Assembly: GCF_041248615.1 (NCBI RefSeq)
Contig: NZ_CP158426.1
Strand: one strand, 5' to 3'
Source: Escherichia coli
Lineage (GTDB): Bacteria > Pseudomonadota > Gammaproteobacteria > Enterobacterales > Enterobacteriaceae
DNA: 64,000 bases
The position numbers were made by a program. Below, one piece after another: positions 25,901 through 31,900 of the stretch (positions are counted from its first letter, which is position 1; each line of letters begins with the position of its first letter).

Positions 25901-28900
25901 CCGTTGGAATAAACAGCCACTTCGGAAGGATTGCCAGTATCATCAATGATGCTGACAGTGCCGTTTTCCTCTCTCATTTCCAGCATGAATACTGTTGCGA
26001 TCAGCCATCTCCACATAATGACGTTATGCTGTGATGTGTAATCGAAATATCCCTGGTTGCCGCCATCGGCTATAGCGAGATGTATTGACATGCCTTCATC
26101 TGGTTTATCGTCATAATCCCCGGCATCCAGACGATTTACGGCATCAATATATGAGACGGTCTCAACGCGTTCTGTCATGCCATCGTTGCTGCGGTGCATG
26201 ATGTTTACGCCGTCAGGCGTTGCTTCTGCATGGAAGGTTAAGAAATTATTCATGTTTCGCCTCGCCTGAATGATTCTGTAACTCATATTTGCCCAACAAT
26301 TCGTCCGCTTCCTGAATAGCTTCTGGTACGCCATTGAGCAGTGACATAACCGCGCCAATCATTAACTTGTCTCTGTTGCTGGGGCTGGCCCCTTCAAGCC
26401 AGAACCCTAAAACAGTCTGAACCTGTTCGATGCGACATTGCGCTTCAATGAGCTGGATGTTGGTCATTTCGCACTCTCCACATCGATTAAACTGATATCT
26501 ATCAGGGAGGTAACTTTTTGTAGCCAGCTATTGATTACTGTCGCCTGCTCCCCTCCCACCGAGGGAATAATCTCATTCATCACATGAACCAGACCTGTGC
26601 GCGCTCTGGTAAGCCGTTCAGTCGCGCAATCTGCGGGAGTGAATGTGTCTGGATATGGCTCTTCACTCCCCAGCAATGATTCAATTTCCAGCTCACACGG
26701 ATGACGATAAATTAAGTTGATATTCATTTTTCACCCCCAAGAATTACCAGCTCTGCACGGGCATCGTTAACCAAAGATGAGCACGCTTTAATCGCATCCA
26801 CGACATCAGTAGCGTCCATTTCTTCAGCCGAAAGACTGACAGCAACCAGGACAGCCGCTGCTTGCTCGATTAATTGAAGTGCGGACGTAAGGCGAGGGGT
26901 ATTAATTGAGTTATTCATTGGTTGCCCCCGTTTTTACTGGCATTTCGCCACCTTCCAGCAGGAAATGAACGTCACGAACGGCGAGATCCAATATCGCGAG
27001 TAACGCCTTCAGTTTTTCGTCTCGTGAGGGAGAGTTGCTCACCAGAATGTCATTAATCACTTCTGTCAGTGTGATGATCTGGCTTGTGCGTTCGAGGGGG
27101 TCCATATGCACATCGTAGGTTTTAATCATGTGCCACCTCCATGCGGATACGACCAGCAAAAAAGCAGACGTGATCGCGCACCAGAGAACGGCGAGCATCG
27201 CGTTCAGACTCGGCAGCAATATGATGAATTTTGGCGGTAATTGTCGGGCAATCGCGGCGAACTGCGGCGATAATCCAGATAAATTGCGGTTTTTGGGTAG
27301 GGGTAGTAGCCAGCATGTGGCAGCCTCCTTGATTGATGGTTTATAGCCACCGCCGGAGGTCCTAAGCTCGCTGGCGGTGGACTGTACAGGGTTAGGACTA
27401 CTGGCAATCAAGGAAACCAGCCTGACCGAAGTCAGCCCCATACAGCCCACCATTGATAAGGTGTGCGTGTGCGCCGATACAAAAAAAGACGCTGGCGCGT
27501 CATGTATCGCCTCGATTGCCTGCGGGGTCCTAATCCCGGCACCCGTTTTATGAGGTGCCTTATAACCATAAACCGTGTTGCCGCATAACGGCAAGCTCTT
27601 TTTTATGGACTCCGAAAACTCACTATTGGAAGAACCAGATGCACAATACATCGCGCTCATTTCGTTAACGTCACGCGCATGGACGAAGGTTTTTGTGGAG
27701 TCACTACGCGAGAAGAGAAAGCCATCTACGACCAGAAATTCTCTGGCGCAGCCGCTGACCTTCTCAACGCTAACACCATCGACCGTAATTTCTGACATGG
27801 TTAAGGCATCCGCTCCTACCACCAGCAAATGACAAACTTTGCTTGTATCTGCTGTATTAATGCCTGACTTTGCTGTCATATTGCTGGATTTTGGCGACAT
27901 ACCAGCCAGTGAAAATATCTTCTTCTGGACGGTTAGCATTTGTTAACCTCCGCGAACTCCTTCATGAAGCGCGCCAGCGGTTGTACGCATGGCGATTGAT
28001 ACCCGTCGCGATAAAACGTCACTCGGTTGTGAGACACGCTTTCGACAGTAACGAGTGCTCCGTGGGCATCTTTGTAGCGTTTTTGTGGTTGTGGTATTCC
28101 TGTTGGCTTAGACATTGAGCGCCTCCAGACGCTTGGCGAGCCAGCGTTGCGACAGGTGGGTGAGTTCTCCTTTGCGCTGCTCATATTCCATGCCCATATC
28201 AATTAACGTGATATTGGTGCTTTCGAGATATGAGAGGTGCTCAAGCTGTTCTGCGTTCATATGGTCGCGAGGTTCGCCAGAATAGCCATTTATCCGCGCC
28301 CACTGCTTAGCAGTTAGCCCTCCAAGAACGATACGAGAAATCATATTGCTCTCGTTTGTGTAGTGGTGTTGCTGCGTCGTTTTCCCCTGCTCGGCACGGG
28401 CCATATTCAGCGCATCGCACATTGGCTTAAAGTTGTTTGCGGCACTGATACGGGCTTTTAGCTGGCGACGATAGCGGGCGGCGATTTCAGGCACGCTACG
28501 CTGTAATTCTTCCTCGCACTGGATGAAATAACGACGGATAGCGCGACCCTGATCATTGCGTTCGATCATTGCCAGTTCTTTCGCCATTCCGACACTTAAC
28601 AGATAGTCTTTGCCGGGTCTGCCAGACTGCTTAATCTTGCTGTAAGCCGCGCCATTCGGGCTTTTCCCCAAATTTGGGGAAATTGTTTTATGGACTGAGT
28701 AATCGTGCCCAATGGTGAAGTCATATTCAGAGATGCGATCAGTGATCCATGTAGAGAAGTCTTTTCCCACGCCCAACGCTTTGTGTAACGCTTTTGCGCT
28801 AACAATATTGGTTTCACGCCCACCGATGTGACCAGGAATAACCGGGACAATTGCGGCAAATTCATTACCGTTAATTGTGCCCAGAGAGGCGTTCAGATGA

Positions 28901-31900
28901 GGGGCGGCCTCAGAAATTAATCTGCTTTTTTCGATGTTCATTTTCAGTCTCCGTTAGGCGGCGTTAAACGCGTCCGGGTAGAGTTTCAGAATGTCGGCAA
29001 TTTCCTGCTGAGAAAGTCCGTTGTGATCATTTATGTTCGCAAGATGGTTAACATGAGTGATCACTTTCAGAACATCACCACGGCAGGAGAAACGGTAGCG
29101 AAGGTGTGTTCCGATACCATCAGGATTCTTTTCGTCGATACGCTCCAGAGTGATTCCAAGCTGGCGTTCTAACTCTGTTGCATAGTTACGACCAGAAGAC
29201 AGACGGCAGTAGCGAAGAATGTCATTTTCTGTCCATCCCTCTATACCAGTACGCAGCATATAGACTCGGGCACGATGCTTTTTCGGTGTGCGCTTTGGTG
29301 CTTGAAGGGATTTTGTAAGGGGCGTAATATCAGATACGCGAATATCTGAATTAGCCGCCTGTAATGGGCGGTTTTTCTTTTCCATCAGGCCACCTTCCCG
29401 CGGCGTTCTGCCAGCCAGTTATTAATTTCCACCGCATCAAACGCAGTCACGTTATCTGTTAGCTTCACTGGGCGTGGAAGAGTGCCATTTTTAACCCATC
29501 TATCAATAGTAGGCAGTGAAACACCTAGCAATTCCGGCATGCGAAAGCGACGGATGTATCCAGTTGTTGGGATAGCTGATGATGCTGGCTTGTGTGCTGT
29601 CATATCTCTAGTAACCTCTCTGATAGCTCATGAAGTTACTTAAAGTTTAGTGGTTGCCCATACAGTATTTCTATTAAGACTAGAATCTATTGAAAGAAAT
29701 TATAAATCTATTGAAAAAATACCGATCCACTGAAAGATTGCAAATGCAGGTGGGATAATTATTTTCTTTATTTTCAATTAGTTACCAGTTTAAAAAATCA
29801 TTGTTTTATCAAAGAGTTATATCTTTCATCGTCATTCATCATGTTTTTACATTTCTTTTTATCTTTTATTATTCAATTGGTTGAGTCGGTTTATAATGGC
29901 TCATGATGGCTTAAAATGGCTAATGATAGCTGGCGTATCTTTTAGAGATGGGGTGATTACAGATGAACTAAGCCGAACAGATATAGCAATGGCTAGGCAT
30001 AGAATTATCTATGCTGGTGGAGATGGGTAAACAGGTAATGCCCCGCCATTGCTTTGGAGGGGCGTGAAAAGTGATTAGTCGAGATCGTGGACAGCTAATA
30101 AAGCCCGTGAGATTTTTTCTAGGAATGTGGCTTTTGCTATTCCTTTATGGGATATCCCTTCATCCTTGATTAAGGTTTCTATGTCACGGTATATAGCTGT
30201 GCGATTAGGTTTCCCATTTTGGATGTAGGAAGATGAGCCTGATTTTTTTATCAGCAGATGTACTATCAACCCCATCATTTTCATTGTCCCGTTTTCCTCA
30301 TCCTGCTTTCTATGCTGCCCACGTCCGCTGCGGTTGGTTTCTTTGATGTAGTTTACTAACTGGAGTCCTCCAAGGTTTCGGGCTTTTTCTTCCCAGCCCT
30401 TGGTGCCACGCAAATCATCAATCGCTTCTGATATTTTCTGAACAATTATTTCTGGTGTATTTGTGTCAATAAATGGGTAAGAAGCTAAGAAAATATCAAG
30501 GGCATGGCAAGGCTCGTCTTTACTAGTTTTTTCACCTCTGTACACCTTGATAGCTCTGGCAAGATGAGTTCTGACAAAATCGACATATTCGAAATTTTCC
30601 TCAGGCACATCGCTAATGCGCATAGATGGGTTTAGGCCAGCCAAGGCCACAGCCATTTCATGAGGGGTAATCGATACAGATGAACAAAGCCGTTCGATTG
30701 GCGATTTTCTCAAGATGTTGTTCACATTTGCCTCCGGGCTTTATCGAATGGCGTTACGTTGTAGTCTTTCCCGCTTTCCAGTGCCACCAGCAGATCAGCC
30801 CACTGTGCCAGCGCAGCTTTACGCTCATCAAAATACTGATGGCGGTTATAAATCCCCTCCACACCCTTAATGCGATGATTGAGGCATCGTTCCGCTACGA
30901 CAGGATCAACACCCAATGCTGCTAAATGAGTACGTGCGGTACGCCGGAAGTCGTGAATCGTGAAATTAGGCACATCCGGCATTTCGGCGCGAACCTTAGC
31001 CAGTGCTACGGGTAAAGTGCTTTCCTGAATATGTGGGATCATTCTGTTTTGCATCTTCCTGGCTGGAAGCACCCATGCGCTATTACATGAAAAGGTGTGT
31101 AGCTCTCTCAACCATTCAACGGCTGGGGAAGGTAGAGGTATATCAATAGGGTCTCCGTTTTTGCTGCGTTCTTCCGGCAAATGCCATACCGCACCATCTA
31201 AATCAAACTCTTCCCATCGTGCGGCGCATAACTCCATCTTACGAACGCATAGTGCCAGCAATAGCTTAAATGTCAGTTCGTTCTGGCGGCTGAATCCTTT
31301 TGCGGTGCGCATAGCTTCGAATAGCCTGATAAGCTCATCGCGAGTTAGCCAACGGTCGCGGGAAACCTCTTTACCACCAGCATCAGATACTTCAAACGCT
31401 GAACAAGGGTTTATCTCCAGAGCGTGGCGTTTTATCCCATAGTCAAAGATACGGCGTGTCCAGCGTAATACATCTGTTGCTATCGTTGGTGCTCCTCGGT
31501 CAACGATACCTTTCAACATGTCGTCAATGTGGCGTGGCTTAACGTCCTCCACCTTCATATGCCCAATGCAGGGGTTAATATCCTTATCAATTCTCCGGCG
31601 AAGGATATCGGGATGTTTCCATCTTGGAAGTATCTGGCGCTCGAAGTATTCGGCGGCCAGATCTGAAACGCGCATGGCGTTTTTCTCAGCCTCCATTTTT
31701 GCCAGTGCTTCAGCTTTTCGTTCCTGTTTCTCTGCTGCTACGTCATAGCCAAGAGCAACTCTGGCTGACAGCTCTTTTGCTGTTTCTCTGGCTTTTGATA
31801 GTGACAGTTCGGAGTAAGAGCCTATAACCATAGCCCGCTGCTTTCCTGCGAGCTTATAGCGGAATCGCCAGAACGGGACTGTGTAGTTTTTTGGGTAGCA

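What the first reader, a model, noticed from the sequence alone, without database searches (positions are those of the whole stretch)
28108..29603. AlpA/antirepressor regulatory module with chained small ORFs
alpA, a 143-aa gene, an antirepressor-like gene and a 60-aa ORF are linked by overlapping stop/start codons. AlpA-driven, repressor-less control is typical of Gram-negative PICIs; the antirepressor suggests the island may manipulate a helper prophage's repressor.
Basis: inference. Interest (0 to 1): 0.3.

Follow-up and report, generated by a model that had tools for sequence, protein, structure and literature searches.

The report
Early operon head of EcCIMP1-like satellite
The flagged genes are real, but they are the already-described front end of a phage-parasitic island nearly identical to the published E. 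coli island EcCIMP1, and this island is not repressor-less because it carries a P4-type antisense-RNA immunity switch just downstream.

Summary
The ORFs exist, all on the minus strand: alpA (29385-29603), orf143 (28954-29385), an AntA-domain gene (28108-28941) and DUF4222 (27933-28115). Three of the four junctions overlap. The orf143/ant junction is a 12-nt gap.

They open a 7.4-kb chained operon of a 19.2-kb island inserted in the 3' end of yicC. From orf143 onward the island is 97.8% identical to EcCIMP1, a published satellite of a P22-like phage. The int-alpA module is a different allele (AlpA 34% identical).

"AlpA-led PICI" is supported by homology and by experiments on EcCIMP1. "Repressor-less" is not supported. 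About 375 nt downstream lie an isrK-like leader, a C4/CI antisense RNA and an Icd-like gene, as in P4. The C4 loops covary with both target sites across nine elements.

A long eta-like ORF starts on the DUF4222 stop codon and stays open across the RNA locus in all eight satellite-type elements checked.

"Antirepressor" is a domain label only. There is no significant similarity to P1 Ant1 or to Kapi1's antirepressors, and deleting EcCIMP1 did not change helper titres.

Extra lead: a 118-nt fragment of a P22-type small-terminase gene covering the pac site.

Verdict: new member of a known kind, modest interest.

The parts
12954..12974 (.). Left att repeat, TTATTCAATATTCTGAATCTG. It is a copy of the yicC 3' end and marks the island's left boundary.
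   Evidence: It matches 32179-32199 at 19 of 21 positions. In island-free genomes, homology with the dinD flank ends at window 12974 and runs straight into yicC.
32179..32199 (.). Right att repeat. It forms the 3' end of the intact yicC gene.
   Evidence: The yicC ORF is 32179-33042 on the minus strand.
30722..31990 (-). Tyrosine integrase with an arm-binding domain.
   Evidence: Pfam Arm-DNA-bind_3, Phage_int_M and Phage_integrase. The start codon follows RefSeq.
30075..30725 (-). 216-aa protein of unknown function. It travels with the int-alpA module.
   Evidence: Only phrog_30524, function unknown. The identical protein sits in the same place in the strain M21170 island.
29604..30074 (-). 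AT-rich region upstream of alpA, presumed to hold the helper-responsive promoter. It contains two perfect 12-nt direct repeats, TTTCAATAGATT, 21 bp apart (29684-29695 and 29705-29716).
   Evidence: Sequence. The repeats are unique in the window at 0 mismatches. The equivalent -449 to +50 region of EcCIMP1 is helper-induced. Promoter function here is inferred.
29385..29603 (-). alpA: an AlpA/Vis-type helix-turn-helix protein and the first gene of the early operon.
   Evidence: PF05930 at 26.5 bits. 32% identical to P4 Vis and 34% to EcCIMP1 AlpA. Matches the solved AlpA structure 8c3t at E 0.0016.
28954..29385 (-). orf143: a conserved protein of unknown function, found paired with ant in every relative examined that has it.
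28108..28941 (-). AntA-domain ('antirepressor family') protein of the Bro network.
   Evidence: PF08346 at 77.6 bits and the PHROG 'anti-repressor Ant' families. Only the N-terminal domain is shared with most phage Ant proteins. The structural model is poor, pLDDT 52.5.
27933..28115 (-). DUF4222 protein, 60 aa.
   Evidence: PF13973 at 87.6 bits.
26911..27939 (-). Eta-like long ORF, annotated 'ash family'. Its ATG overlaps the DUF4222 stop codon. It runs across the terS fragment, the internal promoter, isrK, C4 and icd (in another frame), and ends in frame with a 72-aa gene (27129-26911).
   Evidence: The Phage_ASH hit covers residues 124-219, which is nt 27283-27570, the RNA region. The frame stays open in 7 islands of 3 immunity types despite a net +39-nt indel, and in 8 of 9 elements overall. 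The P4 counterpart is the open frame 8821-8171, which overlaps the orf88 stop.
27674..27791 (+). Fragment of a P22-type small-terminase gene covering the pac site. The core is 27685-27706, GAAGGTTTTTGTGGAGTCACTA. It lies antisense to the operon.
   Evidence: 86.9% identical to P22 positions 4-110, where pac is annotated at 4-25. The exact 22-mer occurs inside full-length terS genes of three P22-like viral contigs, 92.4% identical over 118 nt. My comparison with the published P22 pseudo-pac pattern gives 16 of 17 positions.
27565..27594 (-). Putative internal promoter, the counterpart of P4 PLE: TTGCCG, 18 nt, TATGGT. The predicted start is near 27558, the first base of the isrK match.
   Evidence: Read from the sequence. 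Invariant in 7 islands. P4 has TTGCCT...TATAGT at the same relative place. It matches 8 of 12 consensus positions, below the scan threshold. Inferred.
27482..27558 (-). isrK-like leader carrying the upstream C4 targets a1 (27533-27527) and b1 (27518-27510) and an intrinsic terminator (27501-27488).
   Evidence: RF01394 at 63 bits. Terminator. Target positions. Covariation.
27370..27457 (-). C4/CI-type antisense immunity RNA.
   Evidence: RF01695 at 80.2 bits. All internal helices are 100% paired, with compensatory changes.
27326..27365 (-). Downstream C4 targets a2 (27365-27359) and b2 (27335-27326). b2 overlaps the icd Shine-Dalgarno sequence.
   Evidence: a'/a2: 6 of 7 pairs compensatory, 100% paired. 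b'/b2: 7 of 10 compensatory, 86.7% paired.
27122..27316 (-). Icd-like (P4 Kil-like) gene, the first ORF under C4 control.
   Evidence: NF033153 at 71.7 bits. Aligns with the P4 kil/icd region. 1.0 variable column per 100 nt among islands.
22192..24951 (-). Primase-helicase (zinc ribbon, Toprim, DUF927), the last gene of the chained early operon.
   Evidence: Pfam and RefSeq annotation.

Best explanation
The finding is the promoter-proximal part (the 'Integration' and 'Bro' zones) of the single early operon of a 19.2-kb EcCIMP1-like, P4-style phage satellite. The satellite is integrated in the 3' end of yicC.

Proposed working, with the status of each step marked:

1. Quiescent state. An internal PLE-like promoter at about 27594-27565 makes the isrK-like leader and the C4 RNA. 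C4 loops a' and b' pair with a2/b2 at the icd ribosome-binding site. This blocks translation and, through polarity, the replication genes. The RNAs, their targets and the covariation are shown. The promoter and the polarity are inferred from P4 and P1.

2. Induction. A helper-phage signal turns on the promoter upstream of alpA. This is shown for EcCIMP1 and inferred here.

3. AlpA action. AlpA boosts its own promoter and acts with its cognate integrase in excision. It is exchanged between islands together with int and att, not with the genes downstream. The exchange is shown. The function is inferred.

4. Ribosome relay. Ribosomes pass along the chain alpA, orf143, ant, DUF4222 and then the eta-like ORF. 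That ORF starts on the DUF4222 stop codon and stays open across the terminator, C4 and its targets. As in P4, where eta is coupled to the alpA homologue, this translation would override termination and immunity, so icd and the primase are expressed. ORF conservation is shown. The mechanism is inferred.

5. orf143 and ant. They form a conserved cassette in a slot where other islands carry Rha, AntA or Bro-N genes. They most likely make a DNA-binding or helper-interacting effector. Which target it acts on is unknown.
For: - Identity: window 20137-29395 is 97.8% identical to EcCIMP1, and the homology stops at the alpA 3' end. Gene order is collinear.
- EcCIMP1 experiments: alpA is needed for excision, circularisation and transduction. 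alpA-lux is induced only in induced Kapi1 lysogens and is lower in a delta-alpA strain.
- Module exchange: the same int-216aa-alpA module sits at yicC in strain M21170, followed by Rha, AntA and Bro-N genes. orf143-ant is joined to a P4-family primase in strain E41. Minimal relatives have alpA followed directly by ash, C4 and icd.
- Immunity locus: isrK and C4 hits, with the same pair in P4 after orf88/vis, and an Icd-like gene.
- Hypervariable cassette: 47.7 variable columns per 100 nt in C4, against 1.0-3.4 in the ORFs.
- Covariation: with a2/b2 the structure is 97.0% paired, 24 pairs change on both sides, 0 of 500 shuffles reach this, and slid controls are 32-49% paired. With a1/b1 it is 98.4% paired with 24 such pairs.
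- Targets occur only at the expected four sites in the island.
- Eta-like ORF: open in all satellite-type elements checked and coupled to the upstream gene in the window, EcCIMP1, E41 and P4.
- No minus-strand terminator is predicted between alpA and isrK.
- Literature: the four-zone PICI organisation, C4/isrK hits in Gram-negative PICIs, and the P4 eta mechanism (PMC10111431).
Against: - Nothing was measured on this island.
- AlpA here is only 34% identical to the tested EcCIMP1 AlpA.
- The eta-like ORF is not in frame with icd, unlike P4 eta/kil. In two minimal relatives it is not coupled to alpA: there is a 227-nt gap. The relay may therefore not be general.
- Synonymous and non-synonymous counts are too low to show selection on the eta-like N-terminal part: 4 synonymous against 6 non-synonymous changes versus EcCIMP1.
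- The internal promoter matches only 8 of 12 consensus positions.
- The pairing scheme was derived from these same sequences, which inflates the paired percentage. The both-sides changes and the slid controls are less affected.
Confidence: 0.6

Rival explanations
1. First reader's model. The island has no repressor of its own and is driven only by AlpA. The AntA-domain protein is a true antirepressor that inactivates the repressor of a resident (helper) prophage and so induces it, as P4 epsilon does to P2 C and P1 Ant does to C1.
For: - AntA Pfam domain and PHROG 'anti-repressor Ant' families.
- Satellites are known to derepress helpers: P4 epsilon is annotated 'helper derepression protein'.
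- The gene is co-expressed with alpA from a promoter that is helper-activated in EcCIMP1.
- No protein repressor gene lies next to alpA.
Against: - The island does have an immunity repressor, the C4 RNA, with covarying targets.
- Similarity to P1 Ant1 is not significant (E 0.024), and there is none to Kapi1's two antirepressors.
- Only the N-terminal domain is shared with most phage Ant proteins, and that domain belongs to a domain-swapping DNA-binding network.
- Deleting EcCIMP1 (Ant 97.5% identical) changed neither Kapi1 titres after induction nor CI-lux.
- If expression needs prior helper induction, derepressing that same helper adds little.
Confidence: 0.15
2. The orf143-Ant(-DUF4222) cassette acts against incoming or helper phage rather than for it. 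It would be a DNA-binding regulator that represses or interferes with helper genes, as CapR of the Vibrio PLE satellite does. It would account for the superinfection immunity that EcCIMP1 confers on Kapi1 lysogens.
For: - EcCIMP1 adds to superinfection immunity against Kapi1, and the gene responsible is not identified.
- Bro-network proteins can be repressors of helper genes.
- The slot after alpA is variable and filled with Rha, AntA or Bro-N genes in other islands, as expected for a function under arms-race selection.
- The orf143 model has a helix-helix-helix-strand-strand order compatible with a winged helix.
Against: - No experiment links these genes to immunity.
- The island carries other candidates: an ORF matching an abortive-infection PHROG and annotated ImmA/IrrE, and P22-like ejection-protein homologues.
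- Fold searches gave no significant match for either protein.
- If the alpA promoter is silent in uninduced cells, as reported for EcCIMP1, a constitutive immunity role is hard to explain.
Confidence: 0.2
3. The block is a decayed prophage remnant. The overlapping ORFs are merely compact phage-style gene packing with no present regulatory role.
For: - RefSeq annotates most of the genes as hypothetical.
- The island holds a few phage virion genes.
- The authors of the EcCIMP1 paper first took that island for an incomplete prophage.
Against: - The near-identical EcCIMP1 excises, circularises and is transduced in a helper-dependent way.
- ORFs are intact and conserved in hundreds of genomes.
- The immunity RNA and its targets covary.
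- The att repeats and the integrase are intact.
Confidence: 0.03

Closest known systems
EcCIMP1, a phage-inducible chromosomal island of E. coli MP1 with helper phage vB_EcoP_Kapi1 (Pick, Stadel & Raivio, ISME J 2025, PMC11773190)
   Same: - Identical gene order from orf143 to the ejection-protein genes.
- 97.8% DNA identity over 9.3 kb.
- Protein identity: orf143 99.3%, Ant 97.5%, DUF4222 96.7%, Icd 100%.
- The same terS fragment with the same 22-mer.
- A PerC-family gene at the far end.
   Different: - Different integrase, att site (yicC 3' end rather than tRNA-Thr) and alpA allele (34% identical).
- An extra 216-aa gene between int and alpA.
- A different C4 immunity type: different loops and targets and a 38-nt indel.
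- No second alpA_1, and different cargo at the far end.
Satellite phage P4, left operon: PLL, vis/orf88, eta, PLE, seqA, CI RNA, kil, epsilon, alpha
   Same: - An AlpA/Vis-type first gene (32% identical).
- An isrK-type leader and a C4-type CI RNA in the same order.
- A homologous Icd/Kil ORF and ribosome-binding-site target.
- A long ORF coupled to the upstream gene that crosses the RNA locus.
- A primase at the end of the operon.
   Different: - 1.8 kb (orf143, ant, DUF4222 and the terS fragment) is inserted between alpA and the RNA locus.
- The eta-like ORF is not in frame with icd.
- No epsilon, psu, delta or sid homologue is annotated.
- The primase is Toprim/DUF927, not P4-family.
- The likely helper is P22-like with headful (pac) packaging, not P2 with cos.
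Phage P1/P7 immI region: c4, icd, ant1/ant2
   Same: - A C4 RNA with a', b' and two target pairs, a1b1 and a2b2.
- An icd gene directly after a2b2.
- An AntA-domain gene in the same operon.
   Different: - The AntA-domain gene lies upstream of C4, so it cannot be controlled through icd coupling as P1 ant is.
- No significant similarity to P1 Ant1.
- No C1 operator.
- The context is a satellite replication operon.
Gram-negative PICI four-zone organisation: Integration, Bro, Replication, Late (NAR Genom Bioinform 2023, PMC10111431)
   Same: - int and alpA form the Integration zone.
- AntA, Phage_ASH and the immunity RNAs form the Bro zone.
- The primase is the Replication zone.
- Captured phage late genes (here P22-like gp14, gp7, gp20 and gp16 homologues) form the Late zone.
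   Different: - That study focused on lambdoid-helper PICIs and helper-embedded forms.
- The passages of that paper I read do not describe a terS or pac fragment inside the Bro zone.

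Membership tests
EcCIMP1-like PICI | Collinear early operon and late genes with high sequence identity to EcCIMP1 | tested here: met
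   97.8% identity over 9313 nt. Annotation is collinear.
EcCIMP1-like PICI | Helper-dependent excision, circularisation and transduction | not testable with these tools
   Shown only for EcCIMP1 with Kapi1.
Gram-negative PICI | Island of about 10-20 kb flanked by att direct repeats, with int at one end followed by a co-oriented alpA | tested here: met
   19.2 kb. 21-nt repeats at 12954-12974 and 32179-32199. int, then the 216-aa gene, then alpA, all on the minus strand.
Gram-negative PICI | Own primase or replication module | tested here: met
   Zinc ribbon, Toprim and DUF927 protein of 919 aa.
Gram-negative PICI | No phage structural or lysis genes | tested here: inconclusive
   No capsid, tail, terminase or lysis gene is annotated. 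Four P22-like virion genes are present, homologues of gp14, gp7, gp20 and gp16.
Gram-negative PICI | Packaging-redirection function (own terS, Rpp or capsid-size genes) | tested here: not met
   None is annotated or hit. Instead there is a non-coding terS fragment covering pac.
P4-like satellite | CI/C4 immunity RNA with upstream (seqA) and downstream (seqC) complementary targets | tested here: met
   Covariation.
P4-like satellite | Hijacking genes psu, delta, sid and epsilon | tested here: not met
   No such product in the RefSeq annotation of the identical island, and none in the Pfam or PHROG scans of its ORFs.
P4-like satellite | P4-family alpha primase | tested here: not met
   The primase is Toprim/DUF927. 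A relative, the strain E41 island, does carry a P4-family primase.
P1 immI (c4-icd-ant) | ant lies downstream of icd and is controlled by C4 through icd | tested here: not met
   The AntA-domain gene lies 650 nt upstream of C4. No C4 target lies in or before it.
AlpA family (PF05930) | Profile match above the curated cut-off | tested here: met
   26.5 bits against 21. 8c3t AlpA at E 0.0016.
AntA/AntB antirepressor family (PF08346) | AntA domain above the cut-off | tested here: met
   77.6 bits against 27, residues 47-129.
AntA/AntB antirepressor family (PF08346) | Binds and inactivates a phage repressor | not testable with these tools
   No significant similarity to P1 Ant1 or to Kapi1's Ant proteins. 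Indirect negative evidence from the EcCIMP1 deletion.

The most novel reading that the evidence does not exclude
The chained ORFs may be a working device, a 'ribosome relay'. It would carry translation from the helper-activated alpA promoter, through orf143, ant and DUF4222, into an eta-like ORF that reads across a pac-site mimic and the C4 immunity locus. Helper induction would then override RNA immunity in cis.

The embedded terS fragment would set which P22-type terminase allele can package the island. The interchangeable C4 cassettes would set which satellites, and possibly which prophages, are cross-immune.
Probability: 0.3. Interest if true: 0.5.

Novelty: new member of a known kind. Interest (0 to 1): 0.3.

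Why it matters
As submitted, the finding matters little. The same module is already drawn and labelled (AlpA, antirepressor) in the published island EcCIMP1. The general layout, including C4/isrK RNAs in such islands, has also been described.

The work does three useful things.

- It corrects the picture: these islands are not repressor-less.
- It shows that near-identical islands carry at least three interchangeable RNA-immunity specificities. Compensatory changes at both target sites support this.
- It offers a concrete candidate for how this island family is packaged, which the EcCIMP1 authors left open. The candidate is a fragment of a P22-type small-terminase gene covering the pac site. 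Its exact 22-mer sits inside the terS gene of some P22-like phages but is absent from Kapi1. That could explain the very low transfer by Kapi1 and points to better helpers.

Tried and rejected
- Ant structure. The AF2 model had pLDDT 52.5, and Foldseek found nothing at E <= 0.001. Only very weak APSES/KilA-N-like hits appeared, so this was not used.
- Ant compared with known antirepressors. P1 Ant1 gave E 0.024. Kapi1_032 and Kapi1_065 gave nothing.
- The 'ash family' ORF. I first took the 342-aa ORF for a spurious call over the RNA genes. I withdrew that after finding it open in 8 of 9 elements and coupled to the upstream gene, as P4 eta is.
- Extra C4 targets inside the alpA-ant module: none.
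- The int-alpA RNA family (RF02996) hits one relative (L009) but not this window.
- C4 in the helper: Kapi1 and the P22-like prophages have sar or nothing, not C4.
- The 24-nt repeat at 13035/32048 was first taken as att. The real junction is the 21-nt yicC 3' end.
- Synonymous and non-synonymous counts among islands are too few to be informative.

Full report
OBSERVATION

| Gene | Coordinates | Size | Evidence |
|---|---|---|---|
| alpA | 29385-29603 | 72 aa | Phage_AlpA 26.5 bits, cut-off 21 |
| orf143 | 28954-29385 | 143 aa | no family in Pfam, PHROGs or NCBIfam |
| AntA-domain gene | 28108-28941 | 277 aa | PF08346 77.6 bits, residues 47-129 |
| DUF4222 gene | 27933-28115 | 60 aa | PF13973 87.6 bits |

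(Family scans.)

I read the junctions from the sequence. alpA and orf143 share one base (TGATG). ant and DUF4222 overlap by 8 nt. DUF4222 and the next ORF overlap by 7 nt. orf143 and ant are separated by 12 nt containing a GGAG Shine-Dalgarno sequence.

The tight chaining is not special to these genes. It continues through about 14 ORFs down to the primase stop at 22192. The genes are real: orf143 has 611 homologues of constant length across Enterobacterales, and ant has 1817.

WHAT THE ELEMENT IS

The block lies in a 19.2-kb island between dinD and yicC. In island-free genomes, homology with the dinD flank ends at window 12974 and runs directly into yicC. A 21-nt copy of the yicC 3' end (12954-12974) is repeated at 32179-32199, matching at 19 of 21 positions. 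The island is therefore inserted in the 3' end of yicC.

Its gene order is:
- integrase;
- a 216-aa protein of unknown function;
- alpA, orf143, ant and DUF4222;
- the 'ash family' ORF;
- small ORFs;
- a Toprim/DUF927 primase;
- P22-like gp14, gp7, gp20 and gp16 homologues;
- cargo, including a PerC-family gene.

A literature search found an experimentally studied relative, EcCIMP1 of E. coli MP1 (PMC11773190). Window 20137-29395 is 97.8% identical to EcCIMP1 over 9313 nt, and the homology stops at the 3' end of alpA. The two AlpA proteins are only 34% identical. The integrases and att sites also differ.

The same int-216aa-alpA module occurs at yicC in strain M21170, followed by Rha, AntA and Bro-N genes instead. 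The orf143-ant pair occurs in strain E41 joined to a P4-family primase, without DUF4222 or ejection genes. Minimal relatives have alpA followed directly by the ash/C4/icd block.

This mosaic fits the four-zone scheme published for Gram-negative PICIs: Integration, Bro, Replication, Late (PMC10111431). The finding is the Integration/Bro boundary of such an island.

THE ISLAND IS NOT REPRESSOR-LESS

About 375 nt downstream of DUF4222, Rfam finds an isrK-like RNA (27482-27558, 63 bits) and a C4 antisense RNA (27370-27457, 80.2 bits) on the operon strand. An Icd-like gene follows (27122-27316; NF033153 at 71.7 bits). P4 has the same isrK and C4 pair after its alpA homologue orf88/vis. The region from C4 through the Icd/Kil ORF aligns with P4.

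The two exposed C4 segments are complementary to two site pairs:
- a1/b1, in the leader (27533-27527 and 27518-27510);
- a2/b2, directly before icd (27365-27359 and 27335-27326). b2 covers the Shine-Dalgarno sequence.

These are the only such sites in the island.

Among seven islands that are otherwise 97-99% identical, this cassette is hypervariable. C4 has 47.7 variable columns per 100 nt, against 1.0 in icd and 2.1-3.4 in orf143, ant and DUF4222. The seven islands fall into three types.

I built a gap-free alignment of nine elements: the window, EcCIMP1, five other E. coli satellite-type elements, a lambdoid prophage and P4.

| Structure tested | Cells paired | Pairs changed on both sides | Shuffles reaching this | Slid controls paired |
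|---|---|---|---|---|
| C4 with a2/b2 | 97.0% | 24 | 0 of 500 | 32-49% |
| C4 with a1/b1 | 98.4% | 24 | 0 of 500 | 32-45% |

By helix:

| Pairing | Pairs compensatory | Cells paired |
|---|---|---|
| a'/a2 | 6 of 7 | 100% |
| b'/b2 | 7 of 10 | 86.7% |
| a1/a' | 6 of 7 | 100% |
| b1/b' | 7 of 9 | 92.6% |

One caveat applies. I derived the pairing scheme from these same sequences, which favours the paired percentage. The both-sides changes and the slid controls are less affected.

This is the P1 c4 / P4 CI architecture, whose annotated sites in P1 are listed. That C4/isrK hit some Gram-negative PICIs was already noted in PMC10111431. The EcCIMP1 paper does not mention 'antisense' or 'small RNA' in its main text.

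THE CHAIN CONTINUES INTO AN ETA-LIKE ORF

RefSeq calls a 342-aa 'ash family protein' at 26911-27939. Its Phage_ASH match (residues 124-219, nt 27283-27570) is exactly the RNA region. I first took it for an artefact and then withdrew that view, for four reasons.
- Its ATG overlaps the DUF4222 stop codon.
- The frame is open in all seven islands of three immunity types, despite a +1 and a +38 nt indel that together keep the frame.
- An open frame spans isrK and C4 in 8 of the 9 elements. The exception is the prophage.
- In strain E41 its ATG overlaps the ant stop codon. In P4 the equivalent open frame (8821-8171) overlaps the orf88 stop and is in frame with kil.

PMC10111431 summarises the P4 work. 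Full-length Eta is translated only from the upstream late promoter, is coupled to the alpA homologue, and its translation prevents termination.

By analogy, the chained ORFs here would relay ribosomes from the alpA promoter across the intrinsic terminator (27501-27488) and the C4 locus. Two differences from P4 weaken the analogy. The ORF here is not in frame with icd; it is in frame with the next gene, a 72-aa ORF at 27129-26911. In two minimal relatives it is not coupled to alpA. The mechanism is inferred, not shown.

The invariant sequence TTGCCG-18 nt-TATGGT (27594-27565) sits where P4 has TTGCCT...TATAGT. It would start transcription near 27558, the first base of the isrK match. It matches 8 of 12 consensus positions, below the scan threshold.

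ALPA

AlpA is 32% identical to P4 Vis and matches a solved AlpA structure at E 0.0016. In EcCIMP1, alpA is needed for excision, circularisation and transduction. Its promoter region (-449 to +50) is induced only when the helper is induced, and it is partly auto-activated.

Here alpA is exchanged together with int, att and its own upstream region, not with the genes downstream. That fits a protein acting at its own promoter and with its cognate integrase.

Two perfect 12-nt direct repeats, TTTCAATAGATT, 21 bp apart, lie about 80-110 nt upstream of the alpA ATG. They are unique in the window at 0 mismatches and are candidate operator sites. This is inference.

THE 'ANTIREPRESSOR'

The label rests on the AntA domain alone.
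- Full-length relatives among phages are rare. The best is Edwardsiella phage EPP-1 at 64% identity; most other phage hits share only the N-terminal part, roughly residues 31-150.
- Similarity to P1 Ant1 is not significant (E 0.024, 22% identity).
- There is none to the two antirepressors of Kapi1.
- The gene is upstream of C4, so the P1 logic (C4, then icd, then ant) does not apply.
- Structure prediction was poor (pLDDT 52.5) and the fold search was empty.
- In EcCIMP1, whose Ant is 97.5% identical, deleting the island changed neither Kapi1 titres after induction nor CI-lux. It did reduce superinfection immunity.

The idea that Ant derepresses a helper is therefore possible but unsupported. 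A role in interference or regulation is at least as likely.

A LEAD OUTSIDE THE COORDINATES: A PAC-SITE MIMIC

Window 27674-27791 lies on the plus strand, antisense to the operon and inside the eta-like ORF. It is a fragment of a P22-type small-terminase gene.
- It is 86.9% identical to P22 positions 4-110, and the P22 record annotates pac at 4-25.
- The corresponding island sequence is GAAGGTTTTTGTGGAGTCACTA (27685-27706), identical to P22 pac at 16 of 22 positions.
- My position-by-position comparison with the published pattern of functional P22 pseudo-pac sites gives 16 of 17 (PMC11226127).
- The exact 22-mer was found in 11 viral contigs. Eight are EcCIMP1-like islands. Three carry it inside a full-length 162-aa terS next to P22-like terL (and, in two of them, portal) genes.
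- The fragment is 92.4% identical to those three over 118 nt.
- That terS allele differs from the common one in a central patch of the protein encoded by the same DNA.
- Kapi1 has a different, 142-aa terS and no similarity to the fragment.
- The E41 island has three tandem pac-like repeats at the equivalent place.
- The EcCIMP1 paper never uses the phrase 'pac site', reports very low transduction by Kapi1, and leaves the packaging mechanism open.

I infer that the fragment is the island's packaging signal, and that phages carrying the matching terS allele are better helpers than Kapi1. One point against: the fragment varies more among islands than the ORFs do (11 against 2-3 variable columns per 100 nt). 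Also, five of the seven islands compared were found by searching for the exact 22-mer, so their agreement on it is not independent.

VERDICT

The finding is a correct but imprecise description of the head of the early operon of an EcCIMP1-like satellite.
- The AlpA-led PICI reading is supported.
- The repressor-less claim is not supported.
- The antirepressor-acts-on-helper idea is untested and has indirect evidence against it.

The module is essentially already published. This island is a new member, with a different integration module and a different immunity type. Interest is modest. The added value lies in the covariation-backed immunity cassettes, the conserved eta-like relay ORF and the pac-site mimic.

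Noticed in passing
window 27674-27791 (+), core 27685-27706: A 118-nt non-coding fragment of a P22-type small-terminase gene covering the pac site, set antisense inside the early operon. The exact 22-mer occurs inside the terS gene of three P22-like viral contigs and is absent from Kapi1, the reported helper of EcCIMP1. It is a candidate packaging signal.
   Followed up: yes
window 27326-27558; loci L003, L008, L021, L022, L023, L025, L002: Near-identical islands carry interchangeable C4 immunity cassettes: three types among seven islands, and more in other elements. The a' and b' determinants reassort independently. For example, E41 shares a' with L008 but has its own b'.
   Followed up: yes
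L024 1574-1761 (E. coli FDAARGOS_772, lambdoid prophage region with gamL, kil and a Rha-family gene): A prophage carries an isrK/C4 unit whose a' and b' determinants and targets are the same as this island's. Satellite and prophage could therefore be cross-immune at the RNA level. In this prophage no open frame spans the RNAs.
   Followed up: partly
L021 about 9560-9650 (E. coli E41 island): Three tandem pac-like repeats (GAAGATTT, 9-11 nt, then CACTAC or CACCAC) lie between ant and the internal promoter. They are in the opposite orientation to the window's fragment, in an island without ejection-protein genes.
   Followed up: partly
window 16771-21429 (-): The island encodes homologues of the P22 virion proteins gp14, gp7, gp20 and gp16 (ejection proteins). 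They are 83%, 58% and 34% identical to Kapi1's gp14, gp7 and gp20; gp16 gave no hit. This is unusual cargo for a satellite that has no capsid or terminase genes.
   Followed up: partly
window 21762-21783 and 27599-27620; also 21744-21760: A 22-nt repeat (minus strand AGTTTTYRGAGTCCATAAAAAA) lies just upstream of the internal promoter and again between the primase gene and the late genes. Next to the second copy is CCTGTCAAAACCTGACA, which also occurs in the E41 island's ant-to-promoter spacer. These may be shared regulatory sites.
   Followed up: partly
window 13036-13057, 32019-32070: Five copies of TTATGTACAC lie just inside both island ends. They are likely arm-type binding sites for the integrase or AlpA.
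   Followed up: no
window 13443-15482: Far-end cargo: a PerC-family gene (13443-13730), whose EcCIMP1 counterpart represses LEE, and a 340-aa ORF (14460-15482) that matches an 'abortive infection resistance' PHROG. RefSeq splits that ORF into ImmA/IrrE plus a hypothetical protein.
   Followed up: no
window 26911-27316; L001: RefSeq annotation of the identical island omits the Icd-like gene and the 72-aa gene at 27129-26911, which are swallowed by the 342-aa 'ash family' call. In EcCIMP1 the same ORF is flagged as a partial pseudogene.
   Followed up: partly
L011, L013, L014 compared with L004 (terS): P22-type TerS proteins come in at least two alleles that differ only in a central patch (about residues 68-102). 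That patch is encoded by the same DNA that holds the pac site, so pac and part of its reader change together.
   Followed up: partly
window 41504-41542 (+): A JUMPstart RNA element upstream of the waa (LPS core) genes. It is ordinary chromosomal context.
   Followed up: no
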